Below, piece by piece: positions 714 to 64,000 of a stretch of DNA of 64,000 nt. The DNA is from Azolla caroliniana (taxonomy: Eukaryota > Plantae > Polypodiophyta), in NCBI GenBank assembly GCA_043228905.1, contig JBHGNT010000002.1, positions 21,514,001-21,578,000 on the forward strand. Direction: 5' to 3'. Both the position numbers and the translations under genes were made by a program. Every line of letters begins with the position of its first letter. Within the stretch, counting starts at the first letter, position 1. Under the pieces are notes generated by a model. The model saw only the letters and a list, made by a program, of their open reading frames with translations. It did no database searches and was not told where the DNA came from.

Positions 714-797
714 AAAGAATTTCCATTGAAGCTCCAAACTTGTGTGTCAATCCATTGTTTTCTTCTTTGTTGCATATTTATGTTGTTTGTTGTACGT

Positions 798-1811
798 TGT
801 CGTGAAGATTTTCGGCAATAGTGTGAAAATCCCATAAAACGTACAAAATCGAGTATGAATCACGTAATACAATAATTGTGAAGATAACATTTTTAATATC
901 TAAGTACAAAATGATGGAGGTTTCAAATGCACTTTATTACACGAGAAATAGACAACTAAATGTCAAGATATGAGGGTATAAAGTTTGTGAAAAGAAAAGA
1001 GAAAATTGTGAGATATCCCACATAGGCACGACAAATACGGCTCTCATCATATATAAGGTGGAGCAAAAGATATTATCTTTGTGTCTATGTGTGGAGCATA
1101 GAGAGTTCAAGGTAACTTGAACTTAGAGTGGAGGTGGCTAGCTACTCGAAAAGGGTTTTGGCCAACCAAAACCGGACCGGCGATGGAGCCGGTGATCCGG
1201 CGGCAGCATGCGGCACCGGTATCCGGCGTCGACATCCGGCGGCGGCACCGGTATTCGGCGACGGCATCCGACGACGGTATCCGGCGAACCGGCGACTAGA
1301 TAAAATAAATATATAAAAATATATACATATTTACATATACAAGGAGGGCAAGTATAGATTCAAACCTTGCATCTCCAAGTTAGGAGTCAAATGGCTTACC
1401 ATTAAGCCATGGTATTTAGTTGAAATTATATTTCTATCATTGTACTTTTACATGTAAATTCTCATCCATGAGAGCTAAAATGAGTGACATGGTTAGCATG
1501 CACCACATGTAATACTTAAGTGCCAAATGGCAAACATGCAATTTATGCATGTCTTGTACCCTCACATGCATCATATGCATGAGAGCATCTATAAAAGAGG
1601 GAAGGGGGAGGAGAAAAACACGGTTTTTTTTGTATGAAAATTAAGAGGAAGAAACTCGTTATCAAATCAATTGTGTAATCTCAACTTTTCTCTTTCCCAA
1701 TCTATCTTAAGTACTTTCTCGCCAAAGCTTGTATCGACTCTAAATCCTTCCGGTCCAGAACCCCGGCGGTTCCGCCTCACGATCCGCGCGTAGTGACGGA
1801 TCTTCACGACA
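798..1811 (+). repeat. 5' LTR of the gypsy (1014 bp)
   Basis: TG...CA ends. Direct repeat of 7623-8575 with about 11 substitutions by eye, mostly CpG transitions. TATA-like ctataaaag near 1589. Confidence 0.97.
1350..1417 (-). other. tRNA-derived Pol III promoter-like module (A box and B box) antisense in LTR U3
   Basis: Minus strand reads TGGCTTAATGG-TAAGCC-ATTTGA-CTCCTAA-CTTGG-AGGTG-CAAGG-TTTGAAT-C. A box 1399-1409, B box 1357-1366. The 3' LTR copy has the consensus GGTTCGAATC. Confidence 0.7.
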
Positions 1812-1819
1812 TAATAAAG

Positions 1820-1836
1820 TGGTGAACCCGACGTGA
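1820..1836 (+). promoter_or_regulatory. Primer binding site complementary to the 3' end of tRNA-Trp
   Basis: tggtgaacccgacgtga is the reverse complement of the plant cytosolic tRNA-Trp end ...UCACGUCGGGUUCACCA, recalled from memory. It starts 8 nt after the LTR. Confidence 0.85.
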
Positions 1837-1878
1837 TAGAGGCGGTAGGAAGGATCAAGTCGAGATTAATACTTGGAG

Positions 1879-4066
1879 ATGGCGTCCTCAAGCAGGAGAG
1901 CTCGAAAGGATGATGCTAATCGTCGAGCAAATGATTAGATCTCGGGACAACGACGCGAGCGTGGAGAAGGCTGTCGATCGTGTCGTAGAGCTCGAGGGCC
2001 AATTCGATGGAAGGAACGTTACGAAGTTCCTTGATGCATATAAGAGGGAGATGAATCAAAGGGACGTGTCCGAGGCACGTCAAATCGCAAGCTTCAAGAG
2101 AGTTGTCGCTCGCCAACAACATCCAAAGACGCGTCATCGAGCTTCAAGAAGGAAAGACAACATGGTCCGAATTCGAGAAAACGATACTAGCGGAGTTCGT
2201 GACTGAAGACTCAACGAGGATGACTCGACATGCCCTGATGAAGTGGATAGAGAAGAAGAATAAGAAGATGAGCGTCTCGAGGGTGTACGACGAATTCGAC
2301 CAGATGTTTAGTCGTCTCCCCAATACGGACCAAGTATTGCTTGAAGAGGACAAGACTTTGTACTTCTTGAAGGCCGTGGACATAAAGGATAGACGGGAGT
2401 TGGGGACTCTTCTCGAAGATGATACCCAAGCAAATGGGCTCATAGCGGACTGGATCGCGGTGAAGCGGGCATGCAATAGGCTCGACAAGCGTCGCCAATG
2501 GGTTGATGACACCGACTTGACGGGACCGACTACCACGGAGAAAGCAAGACCGCCGAAAGTAGCTGAGCCGCTGAGACAAAGTAACGTGGAAGGAAAGAAG
2601 ATTAATGACGACATCATTGAAGAGCTAGCGAAGAAGTTCGAGAAGGTCACTCTAGCCAACATGAATCGTCGGGGCCCTAAAGGAAAAGAACCCTTTAGAT
2701 GCGTGTGGTGCGATAGCATGGACCACATGAGAAGGGATTGTGCGAGCCTTCGAGAGGCGATTCGACAAAATATCGTATACATAGAGGACAACATGATCTG
2801 CTCAAGCGAGACTAGAAGACCCCTACGGGTGAATTTCGGAAGAGGAGGAATGAAGAAATCTATGGAGGATGCCGATGCGACTCATGTGGATGCGATGCAC
2901 TATGCTGCGTCGGCCGGAATAAGAGTCGGGAAAGACAAGACTGAAGCTGCTAGAGCGGGAGCAAAGTTTTGGACTTCCGTTCTCGAATATGAGAAGAAGG
3001 GAAAAGTCACATCGAACGAGGTAGAGCTTGCGGACCGAAACGTGCAAAGCATAACCGGGTGGTCGGATCCGGTGGACGACAACACCATACTCGCAGAGGT
3101 GATGTGCGACAACCACGAGGTGTTCGTCGAAGAAAAGAGAAAGAGAATAGAAGAGCAAGGCCCATCTAAAAGACATGAAACAAGGAACGCGAAAAAGAAG
3201 GACGATGTGGAGACGAGTCGACCTTTACAAACGGAGGAACGAGAATCAAGCCGAAAAGGGGAGCCGAGCATACGAGTTGAAGAAACGGTTCGGCCCGTGA
3301 AGGTTGGTGTCGAAGACCCCACTTGGAGGACAAGGACCATACCTACCTATAAGCTAAGGTCGGACATAGAGCAGACGACGGACCTAAAGAAGATTCTCGA
3401 AGAACGAGTTCTTGATAGCCACGTAACTTTGTCCTTGAGGGAATTGCTTGGCATTACGAAGGAGTTCCATGACACGATCGTGGACCTTGTAAAGAGAAAG
3501 AGACAACAATCGGACGAGGAAGAAGAGAAGCCGCAGAAAGCCAAAACGAATGCCATAACGATGGCAAGAGACGAAATCGATGAAGATATGGTGGACAGCC
3601 ACTACACTCGACCTCATTGGGCACGAGCGACAACGGAGACGCCGGTAAAGATCGGGGAGAAGAAAGAGACCGTCGTAGCCTTGATCGACCACGGCTCGGA
3701 GATCAACCTCATGTCAACCGACACAAAAAGGGAAGATGGCCAATCAATACAAACCACGGATGGAAGATTCGCGCGGCAACAAAGTCTACGGAGGACTTGT
3801 ACGGAGCTTGTCCCAATGTCAAAGTCACGATCGGGGATGTGGAGATGGATCAACACTTCTTCGTACAAGAATCGGCGTCGCATCATGTCATCCTAGGGCA
3901 ACCTTATATCACATCATCTCGGATGGAGACCAAAGTGTTCGATAATGGAGCAGCCTTCGCACAAATAAAGAGTCTTGACAACCAAAGATCGGTCCAATTC
4001 CTAACAGTGCGAGCCAATCATGAAAGGAATCGAGATAGTCTCGGAGGCGAATCCTCGGATTTTTAG
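1879..4066 (+). pseudogene. gag: Gypsy gag-protease ORF1, frameshifted
   Basis: ORF pieces 1910-2206, 2103-3896, 3617-4066. CCHC knuckle CVWCDSMDHMRRDC, aspartic protease ALIDHGSEINLMS, VILGQPY. Frameshifts near 1895, 2105 and 3720. Confidence 0.88.
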
Positions 4067-7000
4067 AGCGGACTATTGAAGCATGGGGCACAAATAGTCC
4101 GAGCAATCACAAGACCCCACAAGAAAGAAGAGTGTGTGGATTGCAAGGAGAAGCAACATGTGTCACACCTAGTGGCGCATGTAAACTAGTACTACCCGAC
4201 AAGAAGCACAAGAGCCGGATACAAGAATTCGAGAAGATGCTGAAAGAAGAGAACATAATAGAAGAAGGGGAGTTCGTGACTCATATTATGGAAGAAGCCT
4301 CATTTAACGACACCATCGGCGAAATCGAGGACGTCGTGGACTTGAGCTATCTTCACAACCAATGCGTGATTTCGGTTAACTCCGTCAACATGTACGCTAT
4401 CATCGATGAATACCGTCGTGGCATCTCGATGAAGGAAGCTGACATCAACACGAAATATAAAACGGTGGATAAGAAGATCAAGCCAGTTGCGGTTCCGCTA
4501 CCGGAAGATAGCTGGCAAAAGATGAAGGAAGTCGCTAATGATCCAAGCTTAAGAGATCCGAAGAAGATAGGTCATGACTTCACCAAAGAGACGAAGGGGA
4601 AGCTACAAGTTGGAAAGGAGGATTTCCTTCTCCCTGAAGAGGAGCGAATGTTTTGCGATATGCTTGAGAGACATGGGAAGGCTTTCACATTCTTCCCACG
4701 AGAAATCGGATGCGCCGACCCAAAGGTTATAGAGCCAATGGTGATCTTCACGGTGCCTCATGTGCCTTGGAATTTGAAACCGATACCGGTTCCGAGAGCA
4801 CACCTTCCGAAGCTGATCGAGCTCTTAAAGGAGAAGGTGAGTATGGGAATTCTAGAACCGTCGAATGCTCCTTATTCCAATAGGTGGTTCACGGTGCCGA
4901 AGAAGAATGGATCATTGCGATTCATCCAAGATCTTCAACCCGTCAACAAGGTGACAATTCGAAATGCCGGAATCGGTCCGAGCGTGGACGAATTTGCCGA
5001 AGCGTTTGCGGGCCGGTCCATCTACTCCATTGGCGATCTCTACTCTGGATATGACCAATTCCAATTGGCGATCGACAGTCGGGACATTACAACCATGAGG
5101 ACTCCGATCGGGCTTGTGCGGATGTGTACCTTACCCCAAGGCGCAACGAACTCGGTGGCTCATATGGTGAATGCCATGAATAAAGTCTTGAAGGATTGCA
5201 TTCCGGACATCACGATGCCATTCTTGGATGATATTCCGATAAAAGGATGTTCGGATGAGGAGAAAGATGAATCGAAAGATAAGGAAGGTTGTAGAAAGTT
5301 CGTTGCGGATCATATGAAAGATTGCGAGAAGGTGCTTCAAAGGCTCGAAGATGCGAATTTGACATTTTCGGGAGAAAAATCCGCATTCGGGCAACCGAAG
5401 ATCTTGGTGGTAGGTCACTTGTGTGGAGCATACGGCCGAAAGCCCTCGCCATCCAAAGTAAACGCAATCCAAGACATGAAAGAAGAATGCGAAAACCAAA
5501 CAGAGGTTTGAAGGTTCCTTGGAGCGTGCGCGTTTTATCATATATGGATTCCTCATTACGCTCATGTCGCCGAACCGTTATATGGACTACTAAAGAAAAG
5601 AATAAAGTTCGAATGGCGAGATGAGCACACAGAGGCGATGCGAAGATTAAAGAAACTGCTTCTTGAAGCTCCGACACTAAGGAAGGCCGACTATGCCGAA
5701 GGGAAACCAATTTACGTGACCGTAGATATGAGCCCAACCGGAATCGGGTGGGTCATCAATCAAGAAGGTGAAGATAATGCTCGATATGCCGTCCGGTTCG
5801 GAGCAAAGGTTCTCAGTGAACGGCAACAAAGATATGCCCAAGTCAAGCGGGAACTTTGGGGTATTGTGTCGGCAGTGAAGACGGACAAAGATTACCTGAT
5901 CGGGTCAGAAGTGATAATAGAGACAGATGTTCTCCCAATTCTCGGAATGGTCTCGGGATGTGCGACCCCAGATCTTGCTATGCTAAGGTGGATCGCCTAC
6001 ATCAAGTCTTTAAACCCAGAGATTCGTCACATCGCAGGGAAGAAGAACGCCATGGCTGACATGCTGTCGAGGGCAAGATTTTCAAATGGAAGTAACATGG
6101 TTTCGGAAGATGAAGATGTCGCCCTCAACTTCTTCAAGATGGCTCGATTGTCGGCGGAAGACCAGGACACGCAAACCCTCCACGCCTTCAACGAGAACGA
6201 GTACGAAGGAGAGTGGTTATTCATCGGTAGATTCCTAAGAACATTGACGACCGATGCTTCGTTGACAAAGGAGGAGGCCCTACGAATCCGAAAGAAAGCT
6301 TATCGATACTTCTTGAAGGGAGGATTCCTTTGGCGACATCCAAAAAGAAGGACAGGAATACCACGTCGAGTGGTGGTAAAGAAAGAAGAGCAAGAGACGC
6401 TGATGACCGAATTCCATGAGACTGCTTGGGCAGGTCATAGAGGGACATGGGTGACGTTCGAAAAATTGAAGGAGAAGTACTAGTGGCCAAGCATGTACAA
6501 AGATGTACTCATTTCGTGTCCACATGTGAAACTTGCCAAATATATTCAAATATACGTCATCGTGATGAGTTAAAGCCGACATACCCACTCACCATTCACT
6601 TCAAATGGATGGTGGATCTGGTCTCGATGCCAATGGGAGTGGGACAAATGAAGTACTTAGCGCTCGCAAGGGAAGACTTGACAAATCAAGTGGAAGGACG
6701 AGCCTTGACAAATAAGACGACTTCAGCCGTTTGTAAATTTTTACTTGAAGATGTTGTTTGCCGATATGGATGTGTAGGGAAGATAGTGGCTGACCGAGGG
6801 GAGTTGGACGTGCACGAAGCGACGGAGCTCTTCGAAAGACTAGGCGTGAAGCTCTCCCTCACGACTGCCTACAATCCGGAAGCAAATGGGAAGATCGAGC
6901 GAGGGCATGGACCTATCGTTAAAGCCATCGTACGGGCATGCAACGGTCGAGTCGGGAATTGGCCACGACTATTACCCTATGCCTTGTGGGCCGATAGAAC

Positions 7001-7550
7001 GACACATAGCTCGGTGACAGGGTATATGCCGACGGAGCTTATGGATGGACAAAAGCCGATTATGCCCATCGAAAGGACGATCACCTCATGGGTAGCGATA
7101 CCGTGGGAGAACGAGATGAGCCGAGAAGAGTTATTAGCGGCGCGGATAAGGCAACTTGAAAGAAGACCTGAAGATTTAGAAAAAGCGCGAAAGATGATGA
7201 AGGCAGCCCGAGTAAAGAACAAAGTTCGGTTCGACAACACGCATCGACTTCGTCCTCAGAAGATTGAAGAAGGGGATTGGGTTTTGGTTTACGACAGCAC
7301 CCTTGACAATCAACACAGTACAACAAGGAAGTTCGCAAGAAGATGGTTCGGGCCGTATGTGGTGACAAGTGCCAACGATAATGCCACATACCACCTTGCG
7401 GAACTAGACGGATCAAGGTTGGCCGTACCCATTGCGGGAAAAAGAGTAAAGCTTTTCAAGAAAAGACAAGACAAGGATCCTGACCTCGATTACCTCGACG
7501 ATGAACATAATAGGCAGGATGAAAATGAAGACATGGAGGAATCTAATTGA
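4063..7550 (+). pseudogene. pol: Gypsy pol (RT-RNase H-integrase) in the -1 frame relative to gag-PR
   Basis: RT motifs RFIQDLQPVN, DLYSGYDQ, LPQGATNS, FLDD. RNase H YAQVKRELWGIV, NAMADMLSR. INT H...H...CETC, WMVDLV, YNPEANGKIERGH. Stops at 5509 and 6481, frameshift near 6505. No chromodomain. Confidence 0.92.
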
Positions 7551-7622
7551 TCATCGTAGCCAAAATCTCACATCTTCTCTTCTTGGCACGTACCGGAGGA
7601 CGTGCGGTTTGGTGGGGGTGGA

Positions 7623-8575
7623 TGTCGTGAAGATTTTCGGCAATAGTGTGAAAATCCCATAAAACGTACAAAATCGAGTATGAATCACGTAATACAATAA
7701 TTGTGAAGATAACATTTTTAATATCTAACTACAAAATGATGGAGGTTTCGAATGCACTTTATTACACGAGAAATAGACAACTAAATGTCAAGATATGAGG
7801 GTATAAAGTTTGTGAAAAGAAAAGAGAAAATTGTGAGATATCCCACATAGGCACGACAAATACGGCTCTCATCATATATAAGGTGGAGCAAAAGATATTA
7901 TCTTTGTGTCTATGTGTGGAGCATAGAGAGTTCAAGGTAACTTGAACTTAGAGTGGAGGTGGCTAGCTACTCGAAAAGGGTTTTGGCCAACCAAAACCGG
8001 ACTGGCGATGGAGCCGGTGATCCGGCGGCAGCATGCGGCACCGGTATCCGGCGTCGGCATCCGGCGGCAGCACCGGTATTCGGCGACGGCATCCGACGAC
8101 GGTATCCGGCGAACCGACGACTAGATAAAATAAATATATAAAAATATATACATATTTACATATACAAGGAGGGAAAGTATAGATTCGAACCTTGCACCTC
8201 CAAGTTAGGAGTCAAATGGCTTACCATTAAGCCATGGTATTTAGTTGAAATTATATTTCTATCATTGTACTTTTACATGTAAATTCTCATCCATGAGAGC
8301 TAAAATGAGTGACATGGTTAGCATGCACCACATGTAATACTTAAGCGCCAAATGGCAAACATGCAATTTATGCATGTCTTGTACCCTCACATGCATCATA
8401 TGCATGAGAGCATCTCAACTCGTTATCAAATCAATTGTGTAATCTCAACTTCTCTCTTTCCCAATCTATCTTAAGTACTTTCTCGCCAAAGCTTGTATCG
8501 ACTCTAAATCCTTCCGGTCCAGAACCCCGGCGGTTCCGCCTCACGATCCGCGCGTAGTGACGGATCTTCACGACA
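7623..8575 (+). repeat. 3' LTR of the gypsy (953 bp, 61 bp shorter, TATA segment missing)
   Basis: Follows the PPT. Matches the 5' LTR except for loss of ataaaagagg...gaggaaga near 8416. Confidence 0.97.
8175..8242 (-). other. tRNA-derived A/B-box module in the 3' LTR
   Basis: Minus strand A box TGGCTTAATGG (8224-8234), B box GGTTCGAATC (8182-8191). Confidence 0.72.
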
Positions 8576-8636
8576 ACGCATATACTTGTAGGTCCTCATA
8601 CTTCCGTGTATTCAATCGAACACCTAATCCTTCAAC

Positions 8637-24999: not shown

Positions 25000-25261
25000 T
25001 GCAAAAGGATTTGAACCCATGACCTTGTGTTACATAGTTTGAACCCTTACAATTAAACGATGCATTGTAATACGAAAGATATTATTTTCATTTATTATTT
25101 CTATAGGAAATTCATGTATATTCCAGATTACTCTAGAACATTCTAGAAACTTCAGGAGTACTCCTGATAGTATAATTTAGAACCAATTCGATTCAATGCA
25201 AGTCTTAAGCCTCCTAGCTATTCTTGTATTTTCTCTTCATATAATATATCACATGTTATCA

Positions 25262-25305
<44 letters not shown>

Positions 25306-25856
25306 TCTCTTGTGAGTCCCACACACTTCCTTCCTCTTAGTACTAATCCTAATAGTACTTTCCTTTTCTAGTACTAATTCTCTCCCTGTCTTTAGTACTA
25401 TTTCCTGACAGTTTGAACCAAATTTCTCTCGTCTTAGTGTCACAGACACACCAACCCCAGACTACGACGGATCATGAATGACGAGGCTACGACCGATAAG
25501 GTTACAAACGTGGAACTCAACGTGATGAGGGTAGAAACTCGAGAACTTGGGAGCAACGAGATGAGGAACTTAAGACGCTAGGAACAATACAAGAGCATAA
25601 TGATAGAGATGTAAATCAAGGAGAGAAGATGGGGCTAAACAAGAATACTAGATTGATGCGTTAGTGAATGGTGTTGAATCCCTTGAAAGGGACCAAGGAG
25701 GTTACAAGTATTTATAATGTGAGTCAAAGTACATCCATTAGAATCTTCTAGAACCCTCTAGAACCTTCTAGTTCTAGAACTTTCTAAAAACTCCTAGAAC
25801 TTGAAATAGATAATCTATTATGAATCTACTAAGATACACATAACATGACCATATAT
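25000..25856. mobile_element. LTR-like fragment interrupting the copia C integrase, beginning with a tRNA-like module
   Basis: Starts TG exactly where the C reading frame stops (...IRSRD). Contains ctagaac-type repeats and (CT)n, has no ORF, and is cut by the LTR of D. Confidence 0.5.
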
Positions 25857-30334: not shown

Positions 30335-31403
30335 TTGTTTCAGGTTTGGAAACCCCACCTTGAAGGATTCACAGATTCAGATATGACGGCTTATGCAGAT
30401 ACTAGCCGGTCAACTTCCGGCTATGTTATGACATATGCAGGGGGAGTCATATCATAGCAGTCGAGGTTGCAGAAGTCCATTGCACTATCAAGAATGGAAG
30501 CGGAGTACATGGCGGCCGTGAAAGCCGGTAAAGAGGTAATCTGGATGGAGGACTTCATCGGAGAGCTAGGGATCCGGTAGGAGGATTTCAGGCTCTACTA
30601 CGATAGTCAAAGGGGCATCCACCTTGCAAAGAACGTGGCATACCGCTCCAGGACAAAGCACATCCAACGTAGATACCACTGGCTTCGGGTGAGAATAGAA
30701 GATCAAGACTTCGCACTATTGGAGATCCACACGGAGGAAAACGGGTCAGACATGTTGACCAAGGTGCTCTCAGTAGACAAGTTGGATGTGTGTAGGAGAC
30801 GGATCAGACTGCCAACGCATCCCATGCCAGAGTGAAGGGGGAGCTTGTTGGGAATTTGGTCCCTCCCGACGAATCTAGAAGATATCCAGATGAATCCGGT
30901 GTGAACCGGATACAAGAACATATGTGTAAATATGTTTCTAGAGGGCTTGTCATGGCCATATTTGTAAATAGTTCTAAAGTCCTATCCCAGTCCTATAAGT
31001 ATAAATATGACTTAGGGAACCCGCTTATGTAGTGGTCATTAGAGTCGTTATTATTACTATTGTAAAGATAGAGAGGAAGAGGGAGAGGGAGAGAGAGAGA
31101 GAGGGAGGGAGGGAGGGAGGGAGGGTGAGAGAGATACAGAAAGCTTTTCTATTGTAACAGTTGGTTGGCGAAGATATAGAGCTCGAGGTCATTGCCTCCG
31201 AGTCTCGCTTGGTATCCTCTTCTTATAGTGATAGTTGAAGTCAGTGGGCTCCTATGGTTTTTTCCCTATTAGGGTTTTCCACGCAAACATATAGTGTCGT
31301 CTCTTACTCTGTAAGTGCATTAATCTCATTTCTATTTCCTGCTTTCTTCCATTGAGTGTTTAAGACTTGGTTGAGGCCGAGCACTATTCCGCATGTTTCT
31401 TCA
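30335..31403 (+). mobile_element. 3' remnant of copia 'E' (RNase H, PPT, 3' LTR)
   Basis: KPHLEGFTDSDM...RSTSGYV...RTKHIQRRYH...HPMPE*. PPT gtgaagggggag. LTR 30846-31403 (tgttggg...tttcttca) homologous to the LTRs of B, D and F. Confidence 0.88.
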
Positions 31404-33982
31404 AGTTTGTTAAGAATTTGGAACAAAGACCCTTTAATACATGCATCCTTAAGCCTGGAATATGTATATTTTTTATGTACGTCTCCCACTCAATGTCATT
31501 GAAATTGAAGCCAAATAATAGTTTTTCTTCGCTTGATAGATTTTCATAGAGTTGTTGTGTATTGGACGTGTCAAATCCATAAACATTGAAAAATGTTGAA
31601 ATGAAGGTATTAGAATGAAGTAGATCATTGTTTGATTCTGCATTTTGTTAAATAAACCGATTTGATGTTAGTATACCAACATATAACTATGTCATGCATT
31701 ATGCATACATGAGAGAATGTAAAACACAAAAGAGAAGCATGCCTAAATAGTGGAGACAATAGTTCCAATCTATTAATGTATTATTCTGTGTCTCTTAAAT
31801 AATATCTTATATGTCATACTACATGAATGCACAAACATACAAATGCACAACCCATTTTTCCATCTCGATTTTCACATATAGTGTTAGCGAATGTACATCA
31901 CTTTTAAACAACATAGAAATATATTTCCTTCATCATGTAAAATAGCTTGAAACTTTGGAATTCCCTTCTCTAAACAATAAGAATTGGAAAGATGCCATCG
32001 TGTATAGCCCCAATATGTTCACTATTTGTAAGCAAATTCGTTAAGAGGAACCTACCTTCCTCGATAGAATCTGTAAGGATAATAGATTTTGGCTAGGTTG
32101 ATTACACGCTTGTTTATTGTGAGAATGATTTGTTGGTATTGTTTAAAGAACTTTGGATTTTGTTCCTAGATATTGTAAAGGAGAATGGTTAGATACACTT
32201 ATATGTGTGCACATTAACTAGAAAAATACACCTTTGAAAAGACACCCAAATCAAGTGACATGTGTGAAACATATATGCATTTGGAATAGGATAATATCTT
32301 AAGGTATCTTCCAAAGGCTTTATAGGGTAAATAATGAGCGTATAAGTAGTGCAACTAATCATTAAACACAATGTCTACATTTGCATGATATGAATGGAGA
32401 CGTGAATCATCCGCGCCAAGTATTACTTATAGATTCAAGAAGTGACTTGATAGAAATTCAAAAAATTGAAGAAGAAGATGATGTAGTCATAAACTATCTT
32501 GTTGTCTACCATAGAACTTGGTCTGTAAAATACTGCATGGAGTAAAATTTTAATATACCTTAGATTCCAAAACAACTTGAGATAATGCCTCGGTATAGCT
32601 CTCCATATCTCGGTAAGTTTGGAACTTCTTGTTTCTTATAGGTTTTCCAGTGTTGTCTATGAGAGGCTCCTCTCTAAAATGCTCTTCTAAGAATCTTACC
32701 ATGTTTGACAAGGAGAAAGGGTTCACCATTGAGGATGCAATGTGGTAAACTTTTAATCCTGGCTTGCAAGCATGTTTTGCCATGGCAGCAAGCATTGCAT
32801 TTGCCACCATATCCACTGGTACCTACATCGTGTTAACAATCATAGTGTGATAAATATGGCTTACACCAACACATGCAAGAATAACCATTTTGGAAGTGTG
32901 TGTTTTAGTGGAATATCAAAATGGTTTAAAATGCACTTGGGTTACTAATCATTCTAATACCAATGGTTGAAAATGCTCAAGAGTAAGCACCAAGGTTTCA
33001 AAAGAAGACACTCATACCAAGGGACTTATAACAAAATGAATGAAAGAGTGGTCAAGGGAGTTGGAAATGAAGAAACTAGACTAATAAACCAAGTAAATAC
33101 AAATGGTAGAGTGATAAGAAAAAAATTCTAAAGCAAAGATAAATTTGAGAAGATACAAACCACATGAAGAAGCAGTTTGCATCCATGGGGAAGCCTAAGA
33201 GTTTTACCTTTCCGTATGATATTATGATGGGGTCCATCATCCTTGTGTATAAGAAAACATTGACATATATTACACTCTAGAGATATGTTATGGTCATGAT
33301 ATTAGTCAATAGATGGTGTTAATATTAGCATTGGGCACCGTTGCCTGTTGCCTTTTATTCAACCTGGAAATGGCTCTCTGAATGAGCTCTCCACTATACT
33401 TGTTCTCACAATCACTGTCAGTAGATCATCTCTCATACTATCAATAACCATCTCTCCCATTGCCTTTGTAAAGACATAAGTGTCTTGCCAACCAAAGTGA
33501 TTCGCTCTAACATCAAATGATCAATTATCATCTATCTCAATTTCTAGTGAACACTTATACCAAGAGATTACAAACTAAAGCAAATTACGCATACATCATA
33601 TGAGAAACCGTTGACCTTACATATCACACAAGAAACTTTGCACATCACAAAAAAATATATTCGCATTCTACGCTCAACCCACAAGGTTGAAAGCCATTCC
33701 AATGCCGATGAATGTTACTCAATTGGATAGTAACATTCATAACAAATGTCCACAATCAATTAATAACAAATATCTTCACATTGCTAAAGATTAAGCTTTA
33801 TTCAACACTCTTTATCTTACCTTTCCAATCCTAGCTCCTTCAAGGTTTTAGTAATGTTGTTTGATGGATTAAGTGGTCCATGTTAACATCACTTGTTGAC
33901 ACATGCATTAAAAGTTGTAGATGTTAACATTTAGCAAATTCCATAATTCTTCGAGTGCTTCCCGTGTTCATATTTAGCGCAT
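31404..33982 (-). pseudogene. Truncated tandem duplicate of the FAR gene (part of exon 2 to exon 8)
   Basis: Exons and introns collinear with 36596-39425, offset about 5.2 kb. Lesions: exon-8 acceptor AG>GG (31577-31578), 1-bp deletion in exon 5, TGG>TGA at 33359-33361, GT>GC donor, most of exon 3 deleted, 5' end missing, stop codon lost. Confidence 0.9.
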
Positions 33983-34850: not shown

Positions 34851-36595
34851 GTCTTGCATTTGATCTTGAGGGTTTGAATGTGATATATCCATCCTTGGTA
34901 AAGGGATATGCCTTTACTTGATCAAGGGTGGTATACAAGATGGAGGTGGAGATGGTGTTAGTGCACTTGAATCTTAATCTCTATTGTACATAACAAAACA
35001 AAGTAATTAATTAGAAACAATCTACCATAAGTTTTCACTTGATTCAAAATCTAGACAAACTGTCTCAATGGAGTAGATTCAAATTTCATTGTAAGTTAGT
35101 CTGGCAGTGTTTTATCTGCAATGAAATATATTATTTACGAAATAAGGTGTAGACAGAGAGAGGATAAATACAGAATGAAATCATGCTGTCTTCTGGAGCA
35201 AATTTGACCATGAAAGAAAAAAGAGAGCATATAAGTGAGATTCAATAAATGGCGAAAAGAAACTCAATAAAATAGAAACAAAGTGGATCATACATAAACC
35301 AATGGTATTGTGAACCAAGTAACTAGGTTGCCAATACTACTCGCCATACGATGTAAAGGGGCATTCCTAGATCTCTCTAGAATTACATCAAAATGTCTTC
35401 CATTTAGGATGCTTTAATGATGATTTTGCATGATAATGCCCCAAATCTAATGAAACAATTGTCACTTATAATGTGAATAGTCATAAACTCCAAGAGTGTT
35501 TCACAAAATGATATTAAGGTCACTAAGGTCTTGGAATTAAAGATATCAAACCACAACCATTGTTAAGGGAGAGGATAGAAAATCATACTACTACAAATAA
35601 GAGAAGATGTGGTTTCACCATTAAGGTTGTGCATTGAGAGATTTGAATAATGAGTCCCTCACATCATGAAACCATCCCCTTGACTCATAGGGGTGGTCAT
35701 TGACCAAGCACACACATTGTTAATGTACAAGGTTTGAGTTATAGGGGCATGTCAACATGTGATTTTGCATCAACTTCTACATACAAATTATATAGCTTGG
35801 ATGTCATGCACTTCTTTATAAAATCGAAAGTATGAGAGAATGTGTATATTGGATATTAATAGTTGATTAGAAAGCTCCATGTTGAATTGGGGATGTTGAT
35901 GATTGGTGCCGATCTTGCAAGACATGCAAATAAGTAGATAAAACTACACAAGAATTACGGAACATTACGAGATTTTCCCTTGTAAGCACTATGCCGCTTC
36001 TTGTAATAAAGTTTCCTTTTTCATGTATACCATAATCAAGTTTTTTCATTGATCAATGTTATTTCGTATACCATGATCAAGTGTTTTCTACACTAGGTCT
36101 ATCCAATTGTTAATTAATATCTCCCCTTTAAATATTCTTGTTGTACCCCAACTTAATCATATCAATATGTATCTCCTTTCAACCTAACCAAAGGAACCAT
36201 GAAACTTTTAAACCCAATGCTTGAAAAGAGATATACAAATAGTTATGTCATGTTTTTGCTACAAACTGAATTGTTACCGATTTCGAGATTTACGCTCTGA
36301 AAACCCAAGTTGAAACAAGTTATGGTTCAGTATTCTCTTATCATCAAATCATGCATACCATGTTTTTACATTGACAAGTCATGGCAAAAACATAACCTTT
36401 GACAAATCATAAAAACCACATAGTGTTATTATTTAGCAAATTTTTTGGGGTTTTCTACATGAATGTTTAATATGATACAATACATCGATATTGTATGCAA
36501 ATGTGAGTTGCATGAAATGTAGGAAAACAATGAATACATTGATACAAATAATGCATAAGGAGAACCAAGAAATGGCATACTTTCTTCAGGTTTGT

Positions 36596-39500
36596 TCATA
36601 ATTTGGAGCGAAGACCCTTTAATACATGCTTCCTTAAGCCTGGAATATGTATATTTTTTATGTACGTCTCCCAATCAATGTCATTGAAATTGAAGCCAAA
36701 TAATAGTTTTTCTTCGTTTGATAGATTTTCATAGAGTTGTTGTGTATTGGAAGTGTCAAATCTGTAAACATTGGAAAATGTGGAAATGAAAGTATTAGAA
36801 TGAAGTTGATCATTGTTTGATTGTGCATTTTGTTAAATAAACCGATTTGATGTTAGTATACCAACATATAACTATTTCATGCATTATGCATACATGACAG
36901 AATGTAAAACACGAAAGACAAGCATGCCTACATAGTGGAGAGAATAGTTCTAATCTATTAGTGTATTGTTGTGTTTCTCTTAAATAATATCTTATATGTC
37001 ATACTACATGAATGCACAAACATACAAATGCACAACCCATTTTTCCATCTCGATTTTCACATGTAGCGCTAGCAAATGTACATCACTTTTAAACAACATA
37101 GAATTATATTTGCTTCATTGTGTAAAATAGCTTGAAACTTTGGAATTCCCTTCTCTAAACAATAAGAACTGGAAAGATGCCATCATGTATAACCCCAATA
37201 TATTCACTGTTTGTAACCAAATTTGTTAAGACGAACCTACCTTCCTTGATAGAATGTGTACGGATAATAGATTTTGGCTAGGTTGATTGCACGCTTGTTT
37301 ATTGTGAGAGCCATTTGTTCGTATTGTTTAAAGAACTTTGGATTTTGTTCCTAGATATTGTAAAGGAGAATGGTTAGATACACTGATATCTATGCACATT
37401 AACTAGAAAAATATACCTTTGAAAAGTTACACCCAACTAACATAAATGAAACATATATGCATTTGGAATAGGATAATATATGGAGGTATCTTCTAAAGGG
37501 TTTATAGGGTAAATAATTTGTGTATAGGGGATGCCAAGCCAAAGTAGAGCAACTAATTATTAAGCACAATATCTACATTTGCATGATATGAATGGAGACG
37601 TGAAGCATCCCCACCAAGTATTACTTATAGATTCAAGAAGTGACTTGATAGAAATTCAAAAAATTGAAGAAGAAGATGATGTAGTCATAAACTATCTTGT
37701 TGTCTACCATAGAACTTGGTTTGTAAAATATTGCATGGAGTAAAATTATAATATACCTTAGATTCCAAAACAACTTGATATAATGCATCGGTATAGCTCT
37801 CCATATCTCGGTAAATTTGAAACTTCTTGTTTCTTATAGGTTTTCCAGTGTTGTCTATGAGAGGCTCCTCCTTAAAATGCTCTTCAAAGAATCTTACCAT
37901 GTTTGACAAGGAGAAAGGGTTCACCATTGAGGATGCAATGTGGTAAACTTTCAATCCTGGCTTGCAAGCATGTTTTGCCATGGCAGCAAGCATTGCATTT
38001 GCAACCATATCCACTGGTACCTACATGGTGTTCCCAATCATAGTTTGATAAATATGACTTACACCAACACATCAAGAATAAACATTATGGAAGTGTGCAC
38101 ATGGTTTAGTGGAATATCAAAATGGTTAAAAATGCACTTGGGTTAATAATCACTCCAATATCCATGGTTGAAAATGCTCAACAGTAAAAATAAATGAAAA
38201 AAGCAATTTGAGAGCACCAAGGTTTCAAGGGAAGACACTTATACCAAGGGACTTAAATAAAATGAATGAAATAGGGCTCAAAGGAGTTGGAAATGAAGAA
38301 AATGAACTAATAAACCAAGTGAATTCAAAGAGTAGAGTGATAGCAAATAAAATCTAAAGCAAAGAACAAATTGAGAAGATACAAACCACATCAAGAAGAC
38401 ACTTTGGATCCATGGGGAAGCCTGATAGTTGACCCTTTCCATATGATATTATGATGGGGTCCATCATCCTTGTGTATAAGAAAACATTAACATATATTAC
38501 ACTCTAGAGATGTGTTATGGTCATGATATTAGTCCAAAGACGGTGTTAAAAATGACATTGGGCACCGTTACCTGTTGCCTTCTATCCAACCTGGAAATGG
38601 CTCCCTTAATGAACTCTCCACTATACTTGGTCTCACAATCACCGTTGGTAGATCATCTCTCATACTAGTAATAACCATCTCTCCCATTGCCTTTGTAAAG
38701 ACATAAGTGTCATGCCAACCAAACTGATTCGCTCTAACATCAAATCATCAATTATCGTGTCTCTCAATTTCTAGTAAACACTTATATACCAAGAGATTAC
38801 ACACTAATGCAAATTATGAATACATCATATGAGAAACCATTGACCTTATATATCACACAAGAAACTTTGCACAACCCACAAGGTTGAAAGAAATTCCGGT
38901 GTCGATGAATGTTACTCAATTGGAAAGTAACCCGCAAATTGCAATCAATTAATAACAAATATCTTCACATTCCTAAAGATTAAGCTTTATTCAACACTCT
39001 GTATCTTACCTTTCCAATCCTAGCTCCTTCATGTTGTTTTGTCTATCATGATTTTTTGTAGATCCAATCTCATTAAAAGCACTCAATTTTTCTTTGATAT
39101 GTTTGAATTCGAAATCAACAAATGTGCTGGGATGCAAATTTTGGTCCATGGTTATAGTCGCATTAGATTTGTTGTATCCGTAATTGAAGGTTTGTTCATA
39201 TAGAAGGCCTTTTCGTTTCCCATGGGCAAAGGCTACGAAAACAACGGAAATTAAAAAACTCAGCATACAACACACCTAGTAATGTAAATAAAGGTTGGAT
39301 GGATTAATCGAAGGTCCACGTTAACGTCACCTGTTGACACATGCATTAAAAGTTGTAGATGTTGACAACATTTAGCAAATTCCATAATTCTTCGAGTGCC
39401 TCCTGTGTTCATATTTAGCGCATGGTCATAATGTTCATTGAAGCTCGTTGTAGCAGCAGAATTGACGATTATGTCGATTTTGGTAGCAAGGAAGGTAAAT

Positions 39501-40519
39501 GTGAAGGGATCCATGCCCAATGTTTCCTTTGTCATGTCACCCACCACGGGAGTTATCTTTCGCTCCATGAATGCTTCATATTCTTTACCATGGCGAGATT
39601 GCAAGCATTTGAACAAGTCACTACATAAGATCTCCTCCTTGAGTCTACGTTTTGCGCAACTTGCATCTGGTGCTTTGATTAGTAAGTACAAATGCCTCAC
39701 GTTTGGTTGCACCCGCAATATCTTCTCCACAAGCACTACATTGTAGGATATATTATCATGTAATTAATATTAGGAGAATTGAACATCTACTCATGACCAT
39801 CTACTTAGTTGTAATGATAATATTAGGTGTTCAATATATTAGTTGAAAACATTGGATCTCAAGGTCTAGTTTCAAACATAATTCACAATGATGATATTGT
39901 ACTAGATCACTAATATATATAATTAGTGATTCTGTTCCGAACTTTGCCTCCTTCAAGTATAAGCTAGTTGTGTTCTAATAAAAAGAAAAGGTAGGAGGTG
40001 GTATGGATACTTATGCAAAGTGATAAATAATTATCGTGCAAGATATTTAGGATTACACAAACCCTGTTTTCGTGTTTAAGTACATGATTTAGACAACTCT
40101 TGCATGATTGAATCGAAGAACAATAAATCCAATATTATCTGCAATGCTCAAGATATTCGTTTGTGGAATCATGTTAAATATAAATGGGAGTGTGCATTTG
40201 GACTACATAAGGGTAGGTCACAAGAGCTTTAGTGAGCATAGGTATTTTTGCTAGTAACGATATGGGTATCCCGTTTAGTGGTAGTTAAAAAAACTATTAG
40301 ATCACATTCATTATTACCTTTGGCGAGGAAGCCAGTGGCTCCGGTTATGAAGATGGCCTTGTCCTTGAGGAGATGGACAATGTCCAGGCCAGGAGGACCT
40401 ACATCCACGTTTCTTCCCGCACGTTGGTCACCATGAAGACATTCCGAGTTCGGCTCCAAGACTTGCATCATGGGGCTACCATTCGGCGACCAATCCTTCG
40501 TCATAGCTAAATTTAGCAT
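36596..40519 (-). CDS. FAR: Alcohol-forming fatty acyl-CoA reductase (MS2/FAR2-like), 8 exons, 537 aa
   Basis: Exons 40318-40519, 39331-39735, 39010-39232, 38572-38733, 38387-38468, 37757-38020, 37241-37350, 36596-36761. All introns GT-AG and phases sum to 1614 nt. Motifs [42 protein letters not shown]-terminal [15 protein letters not shown]. Confidence 0.93.
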
Positions 40520-47135: not shown

Positions 47136-48066
47136 TGTCGTGTTGAATAAGGTACACTAGGAGAAAACGATAAAGAACAATGATTTCACGTTATCGTAGG
47201 TGTTGTGAAGGAATTGTTTTATGATATAAAATATATACATATATACTCAAAACTTATATTCAGTCACACTTGAATGATTTGAACCCACAACCATACAAAT
47301 CATGTAGAAAGTATACACCAATAGGCTAAGTTGTTCCATTTAAATTACATGTGTCCATCATATTAGTCATATGTATTGGAGCATCTATATAAGAAAAAAA
47401 GATAAAAGGAAAAAGGAAAAAAACTGTGGATGAAATCAAGAATTAATAATAAAAAATTCACTAAGGTTATCTCATTGGTAATGTGTCTTGTTTGTGAAAA
47501 TTGAAGTCAAGGTTTCAAACTCGGAATTGGAGTTTCTGTCTATCTGTTTGTCTCTCTCTTAAATACTTTCTCGCTTATGCTAGTAAAAACATCAAGTCCT
47601 TCCGGTTTAGGACCCCGACAGTCTTGCTTCATTTCACGAACTGATGAGGATTTCCTCGACATCTTTCTTGGTGAACCCGGCGTGAAAGAAGTGGTAGGAA
47701 GGATCAAGACGAGGATTGACCAATACTTGGAAATGGCATCTTCAAGAAATCAAGTGGAAGAATTCGAAAAAATGATGGTTATCGTCGAACAAATGATGAG
47801 ATCCCGGACAACGATGTGAGGATGGAGATGGTTGTCGACCACGTCATGGACGTCGTGGGTCAATTTAATGGAGTTCCTTGATGCATACAAAAGGGAGATG
47901 AATTAAAGGGACGTGTCTGAAACACGTCAAATCTCAAGTTTCAAGCAAGTTGTCACCAACAACGTCCAAAGGCGGGTCATCGATCTTCAAGAAGGGAAGA
48001 CACCGTGGTCCGAGTTCAAGAAAGCAATATTGGTGGAGTTCGTGACCGAGGATTTGTTGAGGATGA
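47136..48066 (+). mobile_element. 5' fragment of a gypsy related to 798-8575 (LTR, tRNA-Trp PBS, gag start)
   Basis: LTR tgtcgtg...tcgaca 47136-47661, PBS tggtgaacccggcgtgaa 47669-47686. Gag MASSRNQVEEFEKMMVIVEQM is homologous to 1879 onward. Confidence 0.85.
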
Positions 48067-50083: not shown

Positions 50084-50494
50084 TGTCGTGAAGATTCCGG
50101 GCCATAGGTGGAAACAAGGTGAAACGCACGGGAGCACTGGTGTGCACGATTGGTAGGTAGTTAAGGCATAGGTAGTTAAGGCATAGGTAGTTAAGGCATT
50201 AATAGGGATTCAGACATCGTGTAAGTAGGGAGAGTTACGAGGAGAGCGAATCATGGGGGAGAATCTAGGAAGGGAAAACGACAAGTCATGAATGCCTTGT
50301 AACGGTCGTTCCTTGTGCTATAAAAGGGGCGACCTTTGACTATTTGGGGGGATGTCATTTTTGGGAAGTAATCGAGATAGGAGAAAGGGAATAGAGAGAA
50401 GAACAGATGAGCAGTCCTATGAGAGATCACCAGAAGGTGCTTCCCCTGCTCGCGTCAGACGCTCGAGTGTTCTCGACCAGGGATCAACCTTTTG
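50084..50494 (+). mobile_element. LTR fragment sharing the tgtcgtgaagat terminus of the 798-8575 family
   Basis: Interrupts the H gag. Three copies of 15-bp taggtagttaaggca (50154-50198), ctataaaagg near 50318. Cut by the LTR of G. Confidence 0.65.
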
Positions 50495-63078: not shown

Positions 63079-63452
63079 TACACTGAACTGCTTGTCGAAA
63101 TTGTAACTCCTCCATCGTTGGCAGTGTATGATATAGTGCTGACATATCCATACTTCGTACATTTATCGGCTGTCGGCCCATAGCGATTGCCTTATCAATC
63201 ACTTGCTCGATATTTTGATTCCGGAAATCGAACACCTTCAGTGTTGTTCGTAATGGTTCCCGAATTACACTGAACTGCTTGTCGAAATTGTAACTCCTCC
63301 ATCGTTGGCAGTGTATGATATAGTGCTGACATATCCATACTTCGTACATTTATCGGCTGTCGGCCCATAGCGATTGCCTTATCAATCACTTGCTCGATAT
63401 TTTGATTCCGGAAATCGAACACCTTCAGTGTTGTTCGTAATGGTTCCCGAAT
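63079..63452. repeat. 187-bp tandem duplication in the gag of G
   Basis: 63079-63265 and 63266-63452 appear identical. The ORF track shows the same peptide twice in different frames. Confidence 0.93.
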
Positions 63453-64000
63453 TGCTTCAAGGAATACATCCTTCAATTCATCGTCCGGAATAGGCCTACA
63501 AATTTGCAATGCAAATTTTGAAAATGAATCACGAATTGAGACACCGTTTCCTACTACTCCTGAGATAACACATAAATTTGCGCTATCAAGTCTTTTTGAG
63601 GTATTTGACAATGAAATAAGTGCAGAAATTTGTTGTTCAATTGTTTGAATGTTTCGAAACCACGAAGACCATTTTACGCAAACCAATTAGCAGAATAACC
63701 CTCTAATGACAAAATGAACTCAACAATCTTTGACTTATCTTTTGTTGCCGCCGACAGTCTCTGAGCTCCATGGTTAATCTCCCATGTTGTCACAAAATCC
63801 CTCACATGCGCTTCTGCATCAGCTCCCTCGCGGAACTTTGAGTACGGATAAGGCATATTGTCCTCACTCTAAATATCGTAAAATGATACCTCTTCCGGCT
63901 GATTTTCGTCAGAAGACTGGCTATCAGTTAAATCAGGAAGTACCGTTCACCTTCTACTTGTTTCGCACTGTAAGCCCTCAGCCGATTCCGTCTCTAGCGT

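What the first reader, a model, noticed from the sequence alone, without database searches (positions are those of the whole stretch)
1350..1417. Antisense tRNA-derived Pol III promoter module built into retrotransposon LTRs
Seen: on the minus strand both LTRs of the gypsy carry an A box (TGGCTTAATGG), a paired D-stem GCTT/AAGC, a CTCCTAA anticodon-loop-like heptamer and a B box (GGTTCGAATC in the 3' LTR). The acceptor, anticodon and T stems do not pair. The same layout, with an identical 53-nt span from A-box start to B-box end but unrelated intervening sequence, recurs at 47276-47328 and 25008-25060. Established: A/B boxes bind TFIIIC, can act as chromatin barriers, and Cassandra TRIMs carry 5S-derived Pol III promoters in their LTRs. 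Inference: these elements may have kept a tRNA (Arg-like) promoter about 170 bp upstream of the Pol II TATA as an insulator, anti-silencing or antisense-RNA device. I am not aware of a description of this but could not search. Caveat: the related LTR at 50084 shows no such module.
Basis: partly seen in the sequence, partly recalled or inferred. Interest (0 to 1): 0.85.

Follow-up and report, generated by a model that had tools for sequence, protein, structure and literature searches.

The report
tRNA promoter boxes inside retrotransposon LTRs
A family of protein-coding jumping genes from a seed-free plant carries, backwards in each terminal repeat and about 180 bases before its normal promoter, the promoter boxes of a broken tRNA gene, which likely bind the host factor TFIIIC and would help keep the element's promoter open, although nothing beyond the sequence shows yet that they are used.

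Summary
Observation confirmed. Both LTRs of a Phygy-like gypsy (798-8575) carry an antisense 53-nt A-box/B-box cassette; it and the sites at 47328 and 25060 are the four best tRNA-profile hits in the window, each above all 30 shuffles. The spacer alone scores tRNA-like, the stems are broken, and 53 nt is just the ordinary tRNA span. The cassette is fixed in the family (both LTRs, L062, L079, four organism labels), has no target duplication, and survives as an island in the otherwise unalignable LTR L013. Different cassettes sit in other LTRs, facing away from the TATA box. Against function: inside the family the boxes are no better conserved than spacer or flank, the invariant B-box C is mutated in 2 of 5 copies, no terminator is conserved, and 15 of 20 complete LTRs lack the antisense cassette. 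Best reading: a captured tRNA/SINE head kept as a TFIIIC site beside the Pol II promoter (0.4); passive relic 0.35. tRNA-like LTRs are known (Helenus TRIMs; sense, non-coding), and this scan noted related cases on other DNA. New variant; function untested.

The parts
794..797 (+). Left target-site duplication ACGT (right copy ACGC at 8576-8579; NCGN pattern, one mismatch)
   Evidence: Phygy TSD row
798..1811 (+). 5' LTR of the gypsy element (TGTCGTG...CACGACA, 1014 nt)
1357..1409 (-). tRNA-derived cassette: A box 1409-1399 (perfect), 32-nt spacer, B box 1366-1357 with C56>T
1420..1422 (-). CAA triplet 13 nt before the A box (-6 of a tRNA +1), the slot of the plant Pol III start motif; also in L062 and L079; chance not excluded
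   Evidence: motif position from passages of PMC13578239
1410..1589 (+). 180-nt CATG-rich stretch between cassette and TATA (putative enhancer; reading as RY/E-box sites is recalled, untested)
1590..1597 (+). Putative Pol II TATA box TATAAAAG
   Evidence: window conserved with the 47136 LTR, 31 of 40
1820..1836 (+). Primer-binding site (tRNA-Trp by recall; Phygy uses tRNA-Trp in 81%). Not complementary to the cassette's own 3' end (8 of 18)
2055..7550 (+). gag-pol in five reading-frame pieces: DUF4100, RVT_1, RT_RNaseH, Integrase_H2C2, rve; no chromodomain hit
7606..7622 (+). G-rich polypurine tract before the 3' LTR
7623..8575 (+). 3' LTR, 953 nt; 12 substitutions against the 5' LTR; 61-nt deletion removes the TATA region
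8182..8234 (-). tRNA-derived cassette with perfect A and B boxes
47136..47661 (+). LTR of a decayed sister element (same PBS at 47669; U5 plus gag start 73% identical to the first element)
47276..47328 (-). Second cassette type: A box 1 mismatch, B box perfect, spacer unrelated to the first type and not significantly tRNA-like alone (p 0.13-0.23); 57 nt from the TATA at 47386
47468..47521 (+). Weak sense-strand A/B-like unit downstream of the TATA (12.4 bits, below the shuffle maximum 16.1); homologous stretch in L114 and L079; lead only
25000..25410 (+). TG...CA LTR-like unit abutting a broken copia integrase; no TSD, no second copy found
25008..25060 (-). Third cassette type at the very edge of that unit: weak A box, perfect B box, tRNA-like spacer; TATA-like sites 111 and 180 nt from the A box

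Best explanation
An ancestor of one Phygy-like gypsy lineage took up the promoter half of a tRNA (likely as a SINE head) backwards into its LTR, where it is now a fixed part of every copy seen and is likely kept because its A and B boxes recruit TFIIIC, which would help hold the neighbouring Pol II promoter open. Shown: tRNA origin, broken stems, fixation in the family, position between a GC-rich repeat block and the TATA-proximal enhancer, orientation away from the TATA, other cassette types in other LTRs. Inferred: capture by SINE insertion into a 3' LTR and copying to both LTRs by normal retrotransposition; TFIIIC binding to unmethylated copies; TFIIIB loading on the TATA-facing side; a nucleosome-positioning or barrier effect. 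The 162-184 nt gap is about one nucleosome repeat (recalled). The cassette cannot be the promoter of the genomic RNA, because it points out of the element and the element has its own TATA. It is not needed by all relatives.
For: (1) Recurrence. Three unrelated spacers with a 53-nt span lie antisense and upstream of a TATA or TATA-like site in three LTR types within 64 kb. All 4 window hits above shuffle level lie in LTR or LTR-like units, which make up about 8.4 of 64 kb; 0 hits above that level in 58.5 kb downstream of the PBS in 74 loci. (2) Between L079 and the chimeric, gag-less L013 only 4 of 45 windows match above background: the LTR tip, two over the cassette (29 and 27 of 40) and a CT-rich patch. 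The cassette aligns without gaps, 39 of 53. (3) In the old sister copy at 47328, 20 of 21 box positions fit the consensus while the spacer no longer scores tRNA-like and matches the first type at chance level, although U5 plus gag start are 73-77% identical. (4) The four A-box substitutions seen among the window, L062, L079 and the laid contigs fall on tRNA positions 9, 12, 13 and 15, all degenerate in the recalled consensus. (5) The gap from A box to TATA is 180, 162, 180 and 184 nt in the window, L062, L079 and L013, although the L013 stretch is unrelated. (6) Sense cassettes in L082 (19.0 bits) and L029 (12.1 bits, weak) lie downstream of a TATA, so they also face away from it. (7) TFIIIC sites alter neighbouring Pol II transcription in yeast (PMC4228148, abstract), and yeast tRNA genes order upstream nucleosomes (PMC5911963, passages).
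Against: (1) Within the family the cassette is not more conserved than its flank: 87% against 94% (L079) and 85% against 88% (L062) over aligned columns. In the 40 of 65 variant rows shown, variable sites number 2 of 11 in the A box, 6 of 32 in the spacer and 31 of 187 in the flank (p = 1; 0 of 6 invariant A sites has chance 0.33). (2) Against L013 the spacer (24-26 of 32) is better kept than the boxes (7 of 11; 7-8 of 10), and L013 breaks two invariant A-box positions if read without a gap. (3) The invariant C56 is T in 2 of 5 copies (5' LTR, L079), a CpG-type change. (4) Intact boxes with broken stems are also what a SINE brings with it, so they need not reflect selection inside the LTR. (5) 15 of 20 complete or nearly complete LTRs lack the antisense cassette (plus the window's 5' LTR), including the sisters L036 and L076; L076 shares the rest of U3 and keeps only a B-like core (11 of 23 upstream matches; 5 of 249 background sites reach that). 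(6) In Arabidopsis, tRNA genes in heterochromatin are CG-methylated and silent in spite of intact boxes (PMC7544208, passages), so plant Pol III sites need not resist silencing. (7) The 47328 cassette is only 57 nt from its TATA.
Confidence: 0.4

Rival explanations
1. Passive relic: a tRNA-derived SINE fell into the tolerant part of U3 of a master copy and rides along. Antisense and upstream copies persist because they do least harm to the genomic RNA and the enhancer.
For: No box-over-spacer conservation after capture; C56 lost in 2 of 5 copies; absent from 15 of 20 LTRs; Kojima 2024 notes many Repbase LTRs with tRNA-like parts and proposes SINE insertion as the origin; an AT-rich tract follows the cassette like a SINE tail.
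Against: Three cassette types in LTRs and none free-standing in the rest of the window or in 58.5 kb of internal sequence (internal coding DNA is not neutral, which weakens this); island-like retention in L013; intact boxes in the decayed 47328 copy; no TSD.
Confidence: 0.35
2. The cassette makes a short antisense Pol III RNA from U3 that tunes silencing or competes with the Pol II promoter.
For: Perfect A and B boxes at 8234 and in L062; CAA at -6; T4 runs 15, 24 and 2 nt after the B box in L079, 47328 and 25060.
Against: The terminator is not conserved: first T4 at +212 in L062 and +119 in L013. Fold z-scores are -0.99, -2.83, 0.08 and -0.73 for the four window sites, so no shared structure.
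Confidence: 0.1
3. The whole ~70-nt block is kept for a reason other than Pol III, such as a site for another DNA-binding protein or a hairpin in the U3 part of the genomic RNA.
For: Spacer conserved at least as well as the boxes against L013; hairpins CTCC/GGAG and around the T loop are possible in the window and L013.
Against: Other types keep only the boxes and the span with a random spacer (47328; L029 4 of 27).
Confidence: 0.08
4. The cassettes are landing pads that draw tRNA-targeting elements, or were gained because the elements insert next to tRNA genes.
For: tRNA genes or copies lie upstream of the PBS in 3 of the 78 loci given to ARAGORN (L083 Arg, L057 Met, L052 Phe); earlier notes report this in a fungus (untested).
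Against: No insertion sits at the start side of any cassette in the window or in L013, L062, L079; Phygy is described with an NCGN target preference.
Confidence: 0.05
5. Chance motif pairs.
For: The 25060 A box has 3 mismatches; Rfam and ARAGORN see nothing.
Against: 3 observed against 0.03 expected; top four profile hits beyond all shuffles; spacer-only tRNA signal.
Confidence: 0.02

Closest known systems
Helenus / TRIMp3 (Kojima 2024, PMC10886601; read parts 1-4 of 6 of the text, searched the supplement)
   Same: tRNA-derived sequence inside both LTRs; A and B boxes kept, not a functional tRNA; not complementary to the PBS; origin by SINE2 insertion proposed; one seed-free plant family known (Selaginella Helenus-1_SMo).
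   Different: Helenus is non-coding and 311-1263 bp. In the two supplement records I saw (Helenus-1_SMo, Helenus-2C_ToGe) the boxes read on the sense strand, where they can drive the element's RNA. Here the element is 7.8 kb with gag-pol, the cassette is antisense and there is a Pol II TATA. Kojima states that the autonomous partners must use Pol II and are unlikely to share such LTR sequence.
Cassandra TRIM (as described in PMC10886601)
   Same: A small-RNA-gene-derived Pol III promoter in the LTRs of a plant retroelement.
   Different: 5S type-1 promoter, sense, drives the element's transcript, non-coding. Here tRNA type-2 boxes, antisense, coding element.
Phygy clade of non-chromovirus Ty3/gypsy (Neumann et al. 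2019, PMC6317226; passages and one supplement row)
   Same: 4-bp NCGN TSD, tRNA-Trp PBS, 7656-9968 bp, polyprotein filling the interior, no extra domain.
   Different: No tRNA-like LTR part is mentioned in what I read. RT placement against the reference set was not tested.
ETC sites and tDNA insulators of yeast (PMC4228148 abstract; PMC5911963 passages)
   Same: TFIIIC boxes next to a Pol II promoter that may act without making a useful RNA.
   Different: Those are host loci with tested binding. Here the boxes are on a mobile element, in a plant, and binding is untested.
Plant tRNA-derived SINEs (recalled)
   Same: A and B boxes at tRNA spacing, decayed stems, AT-rich 3' side.
   Different: No TSD, no body, no free copy found; it moves with the LTR.

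Membership tests
Helenus (TRIMp3) | tRNA-like sequence with A and B boxes in both LTRs | tested here: met
Helenus (TRIMp3) | Short (311-1263 bp), non-coding TRIM | tested here: not met
   7778 bp with gag, RT, RNase H, integrase
Helenus (TRIMp3) | Boxes oriented to transcribe the element | tested here: not met
   antisense in all 5 copies of the first type; sense in the two Helenus records seen
Helenus (TRIMp3) | PBS and PPT present; tRNA-like part not complementary to the PBS | tested here: met
   8 of 18 identity to the PBS complement
Phygy (Ty3/gypsy) | 4-bp TSD NCGN | tested here: met
   ACGT / ACGC; table row
Phygy (Ty3/gypsy) | tRNA-Trp PBS | tested here: inconclusive
   PBS present and shared by some 65-70 related LTR ends; its identity as Trp is recalled, no plant tRNA-Trp was fetched
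Phygy (Ty3/gypsy) | Length 7656-9968 bp, no chromodomain or extra domain | tested here: met
   7778 bp; Pfam
Phygy (Ty3/gypsy) | RT falls in the Phygy clade | not testable with these tools
   no reference RT set; named relatives come from Riccia, Adiantum and Calypogeia
Functional tRNA gene | Cloverleaf stems pair | tested here: not met
tRNA-derived SINE | Target-site duplication around the unit | tested here: not met
   no flanking repeat of 6 nt or more in L062, L079 or the 47328 site; only short AT-rich matches in L013 and at 25060
tRNA-derived SINE | Free dispersed copies outside LTRs | tested here: inconclusive
   none in the window or 131 loci, but no whole genome was available
TFIIIC barrier / ETC-like site | B box (with or without A box) matching the consensus | tested here: met
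   perfect at 8191, 47285, 25017 and in L062; C56 changed at 1362 and in L079
TFIIIC barrier / ETC-like site | Boxes conserved above neutral flank | tested here: inconclusive
   not within the family; suggested across families
TFIIIC barrier / ETC-like site | TFIIIC occupancy and an effect on neighbouring chromatin or Pol II output | not testable with these tools
   needs ChIP and reporter assays

The most novel reading that the evidence does not exclude
Coding LTR retrotransposons of seed-free plants have repeatedly captured tRNA/SINE promoter heads and keep them, pointing away from the TATA box at about one nucleosome's distance, as portable TFIIIC sites that protect their Pol II promoter from silencing: a cis anti-silencing device borrowed from the Pol III machinery.
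Probability: 0.3. Interest if true: 0.8.

Novelty: new variant of a known kind. Interest (0 to 1): 0.48.

Why it matters
Pol III boxes in LTRs are known only as (proposed) promoters of small non-coding elements. If coding elements keep them backwards beside a Pol II promoter, they must serve something else, most simply chromatin control by TFIIIC. That would give a compact, testable case of TFIIIC barrier activity in plants, where I found none described in the searches run, and a route by which retrotransposons spread TFIIIC sites through heterochromatin. If the cassette is only a passenger, it still matters for annotation: high-copy LTRs carry tRNA-like heads that can be miscalled as SINEs or tRNA pseudogenes.

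Tried and rejected
No whole genome is held for this window, so family-wide alignments and a search for free SINE copies were not possible. Sequencing runs: no RNA holder listed among 24 runs; this says nothing about expression, and no RNA run was laid. The laid stretch starts 11 nt beyond the B box, so B-box variants and joints that skip the cassette could not be seen: even the known C/T difference at 1362 is not listed, and 25 of 65 variant rows were not shown. Its depth figures are not copy numbers. Rfam at E<=10 gave no tRNA hit on the window, on 8170-8260 or on L062. Phage blastn gave 11 short hits at E about 8, none a tRNA. Cassette patterns found 0 matches in viral contigs and 0 in prokaryote genomes; an LTR-end pattern found 1 prokaryote contig, not examined; RT in viral contigs gave no relative; the 11 PBS matches in viral contigs showed no gag. 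Parent tRNA not assignable: best identities to 100 viral tRNAs are 17-18 of 31, across several isotypes. Read-through of the primer tRNA as the source was rejected for the 3' end (8 of 18 identity). C74-C75-T76 in all 5 first-type copies hints at a mature-tRNA copy, but it is one inherited observation in C-rich sequence and is left as a lead. A common family for the 47328 and L082 cassettes was not supported (non-box p above 0.05); the other pairwise p values come from 36 comparisons and are weak. Rows dropped: of 80 candidates, L008, L055, L070 and L088 were later left out as bacterial-like; loci L092-L131 hold at most 300 nt upstream and cannot show the slot; one search used 39 loci with 400 nt or more. 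The tree rests on 440 nt of U5 plus gag start, with weak deep nodes and long branches, so no order of gains and losses is claimed.

Full report
THE ELEMENT. The finding lies in the 5' LTR (798-1811) of a 7778-bp gypsy element whose 3' LTR is 7623-8575. The LTRs differ by 12 substitutions in 953 aligned bases, 9 of them transitions, and the 3' LTR has lost 61 nt that include the TATA box. The interior holds gag, RT, RNase H and integrase in five reading-frame pieces, with no chromodomain hit, so this copy is probably dead. The flanks are ACGT and ACGC; a PBS starts at 1820 and a G-rich PPT precedes the 3' LTR. Neumann et al. 2019 (PMC6317226; passages; one supplement row) give Phygy a 4-bp NCGN TSD, a tRNA-Trp PBS in 81% and 7656-9968 bp. 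That fits; that this PBS is the Trp one is my recall. Named RT relatives among the 120 listed come from Riccia, Adiantum and Calypogeia, so the host is a seed-free plant. No genome is held.

IS THE MOTIF REAL. Yes. On the minus strand 1409-1357 and 8234-8182 carry an A box and a B box 53 nt apart; the 3' copy is perfect and the 5' copy has C56>T. Pairs with at most one mismatch number 3 in the window against 0.03 in 100 shuffles (the consensus motifs are recalled and agree with the TRGCY/YGG/GGTTC given in PMC10886601). I fetched 121 viral-contig matches to an A-N31-B pattern; 119 are ARAGORN tRNAs, so 53 nt is simply the common tRNA span. A profile of the 31 free spacer positions from 100 distinct genes scores the spacers of 1409, 8234, L062 and L079 as tRNA-like (p 0.0004-0.007), L013 (0.004-0.015), 25060 (0.0008-0.004) and L082 (0.003-0.007) too, but not 47328 (0.13-0.23) or L076. 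The stems are broken in tRNA register; ARAGORN and Rfam find no tRNA. The anticodon slot is CCT in the window and L013, CTT in L062 and L079. The D arm resembles the tRNA-Arg(CCG) called in L083, but only at p about 0.014, so the parent is not named.

HOW WIDESPREAD. A scan of metagenome contigs with the PBS gave 120 loci of about 550; most of the moss-like ones end in an LTR terminus and many show gag. A strict scan of 80 candidates found the antisense pair in L062, L079 and the two window elements; a relaxed scan added L013, and an HMM of the five first-type copies found no further copy in the window or 131 loci. Of 19 complete or nearly complete LTRs plus the window's 5' LTR, 5 carry an antisense cassette and 15 do not; these are not independent families. 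The sisters L036 and L076 lack it; L076 keeps a B-like core in the same slot with weak upstream likeness (11 of 23; 5 of 249 background sites reach that). Contigs of 4 runs with 4 organism labels from 3 studies all cover the cassette. There is no TSD. So the cassette is a fixed part of one lineage's LTR, not a SINE present in some copies, and not a feature of the whole clade.

IS IT UNDER SELECTION. Within the family, no: identity to the window is 87% in the cassette against 94% in the flank for L079, 85% against 88% for L062. Among the 40 of 65 variant rows shown, variable sites are 2 of 11 in the A box, 6 of 32 in the spacer and 31 of 187 in the flank; the B box lay too near the edge to be read. 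The four A-box changes seen (tRNA positions 9, 12, 13, 15) are all consensus-compatible, but 0 of 6 invariant sites has chance 0.33. C56 is lost in 2 of 5 copies. Across families the picture favours selection. L013 has a U5 of another family (93% to L126) and no gag match; against L079 it matches above background in only 4 of 45 windows: the LTR tip, two over the cassette, and a CT-rich patch. There, however, the spacer is kept as well as the boxes or better. The element at 47136 groups with the first family (support 94/98, 73-77% identity over U5 plus gag start) and shares its TATA window (31 of 40), yet its cassette matches only in boxes, span, strand and slot; the spacer is 8-10 of 32. Either a second cassette replaced the first in the same slot or only the boxes were kept. 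The unit at 25000-25410 is an unrelated LTR-like sequence with a third type at its edge. With a variable-spacing profile, all 4 window hits above shuffle level are in LTR or LTR-like units (about 8.4 of 64 kb); 74 loci give 0 such hits in 58.5 kb downstream of the PBS; upstream, the hits above that level are L062, L079, L082 and real tRNA genes or copies in L052, L057 and L083, with L013 at the threshold (16.0 against 16.1) and L029 below it. Internal coding DNA is purged of insertions, so this contrast is suggestive only.

GEOMETRY. The A box lies 180, 162, 180 and 184 nt from the TATA in the window, L062, L079 and L013, 57 nt at 47328, and 111 or 180 nt from TATA-like sites at 25060. L082 and, weakly, L029 carry sense cassettes 182 and 134 nt downstream of a TATA. 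In each case the cassette points away from the TATA, with the side where TFIIIB loads facing it. A CAA sits at -6 in the window, L062 and L079, inside the -10 to -3 range given for plant tRNA genes (PMC13578239, passages; the same review says such motifs are weaker in non-flowering plants). A T4 terminator close to the B box is present in L079, at 47328 and at 25060 but not in L062 or L013, so a defined RNA is unlikely to be the conserved product.

MECHANISM. The cassette cannot drive the genomic RNA. I favour, at 0.4, a captured tRNA/SINE head kept as a TFIIIC site that orders nucleosomes or blocks silencing next to the Pol II enhancer and TATA. This rests on recurrence, island-like retention and geometry, and on yeast precedent (PMC4228148, abstract; PMC5911963, passages). 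Binding and effect are inferred. A passive relic is nearly as likely (0.35): a SINE brings intact boxes and broken stems with it, selection after capture is not shown, most relatives do without it, and methylated Arabidopsis tRNA clusters are silent in spite of intact boxes (PMC7544208, passages).

KNOWN OR NEW. Kojima 2024 (PMC10886601; parts 1-4 of 6; supplement search) defines Helenus TRIMs with tRNA-like LTRs, one in Selaginella, notes that 'not a few LTRs' in Repbase hold part of a tRNA, and analyses only elements under 1000 bp. The present element fails Helenus membership on size, coding capacity and orientation. Seven searches (listings and abstract starts only, apart from the papers named) showed no description of antisense tRNA boxes in LTRs of coding plant retrotransposons; subscription papers and Repbase entries are outside this library. 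Earlier notes of this scan report Pol III boxes in fungal chromovirus LTRs and a broken antisense tRNA in another gypsy; they are unchecked and I did not use them as support. Verdict: real, tRNA-derived, lineage-fixed and recurrent; new variant of a known kind; function open. Interest 0.48.

Noticed in passing
window 1591-1651 against 8415-8417: The 3' LTR lacks 61 nt that include the TATA box, so progeny of this copy would inherit a TATA-less promoter.
   Followed up: partly
window 47468-47521 (+), L114, L079, L118: Weak sense A/B-like unit in the R region of the same clade, facing away from the TATA on the other side; below the shuffle maximum.
   Followed up: partly
L082 LTR positions 553-605 and 704-756; L067: Duplicated sense tRNA-like unit downstream of the TATA in another Trp-primed family.
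   Followed up: partly
L083, about 860-930 nt upstream of its PBS: A full tRNA-Arg(CCG) copy lies antisense about 20 nt after what looks like another element's LTR end and PBS, and about 200 nt from the Phygy-like LTR.
   Followed up: partly
L057 363-429 and 728-799 (oriented on the PBS): Two tandem tRNA-Met-like copies upstream of a nested LTR.
   Followed up: no
L013: Chimeric LTR (tip and cassette of this family, U5 of the L126 family) followed by a repetitive non-gag reading frame; probably a non-autonomous element.
   Followed up: partly
L043: LTR reduced to about 124 nt (tip plus U5), with no TATA or cassette; deletion or assembly artefact.
   Followed up: no
window 31396-33842 and 36581-39031: Tandem duplication at 89% identity, 5.2 kb apart, beside an ORF with a NAD_binding_4 (male sterility / fatty acyl reductase-like) hit at 39260-39763.
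   Followed up: no
window 41341-41673: 138-nt inverted repeat, 94% complementary, MITE-like; its mir-559 hit is far below the gathering score.
   Followed up: no
window 63079-63453: Perfect tandem duplication of 187 nt inside a zinc-knuckle-coding region.
   Followed up: no
window 1170-1295; L062, L079, L076: GC-rich CCGG-type short repeats in U3 that turn over quickly between relatives; a likely methylation target next to the cassette.
   Followed up: no
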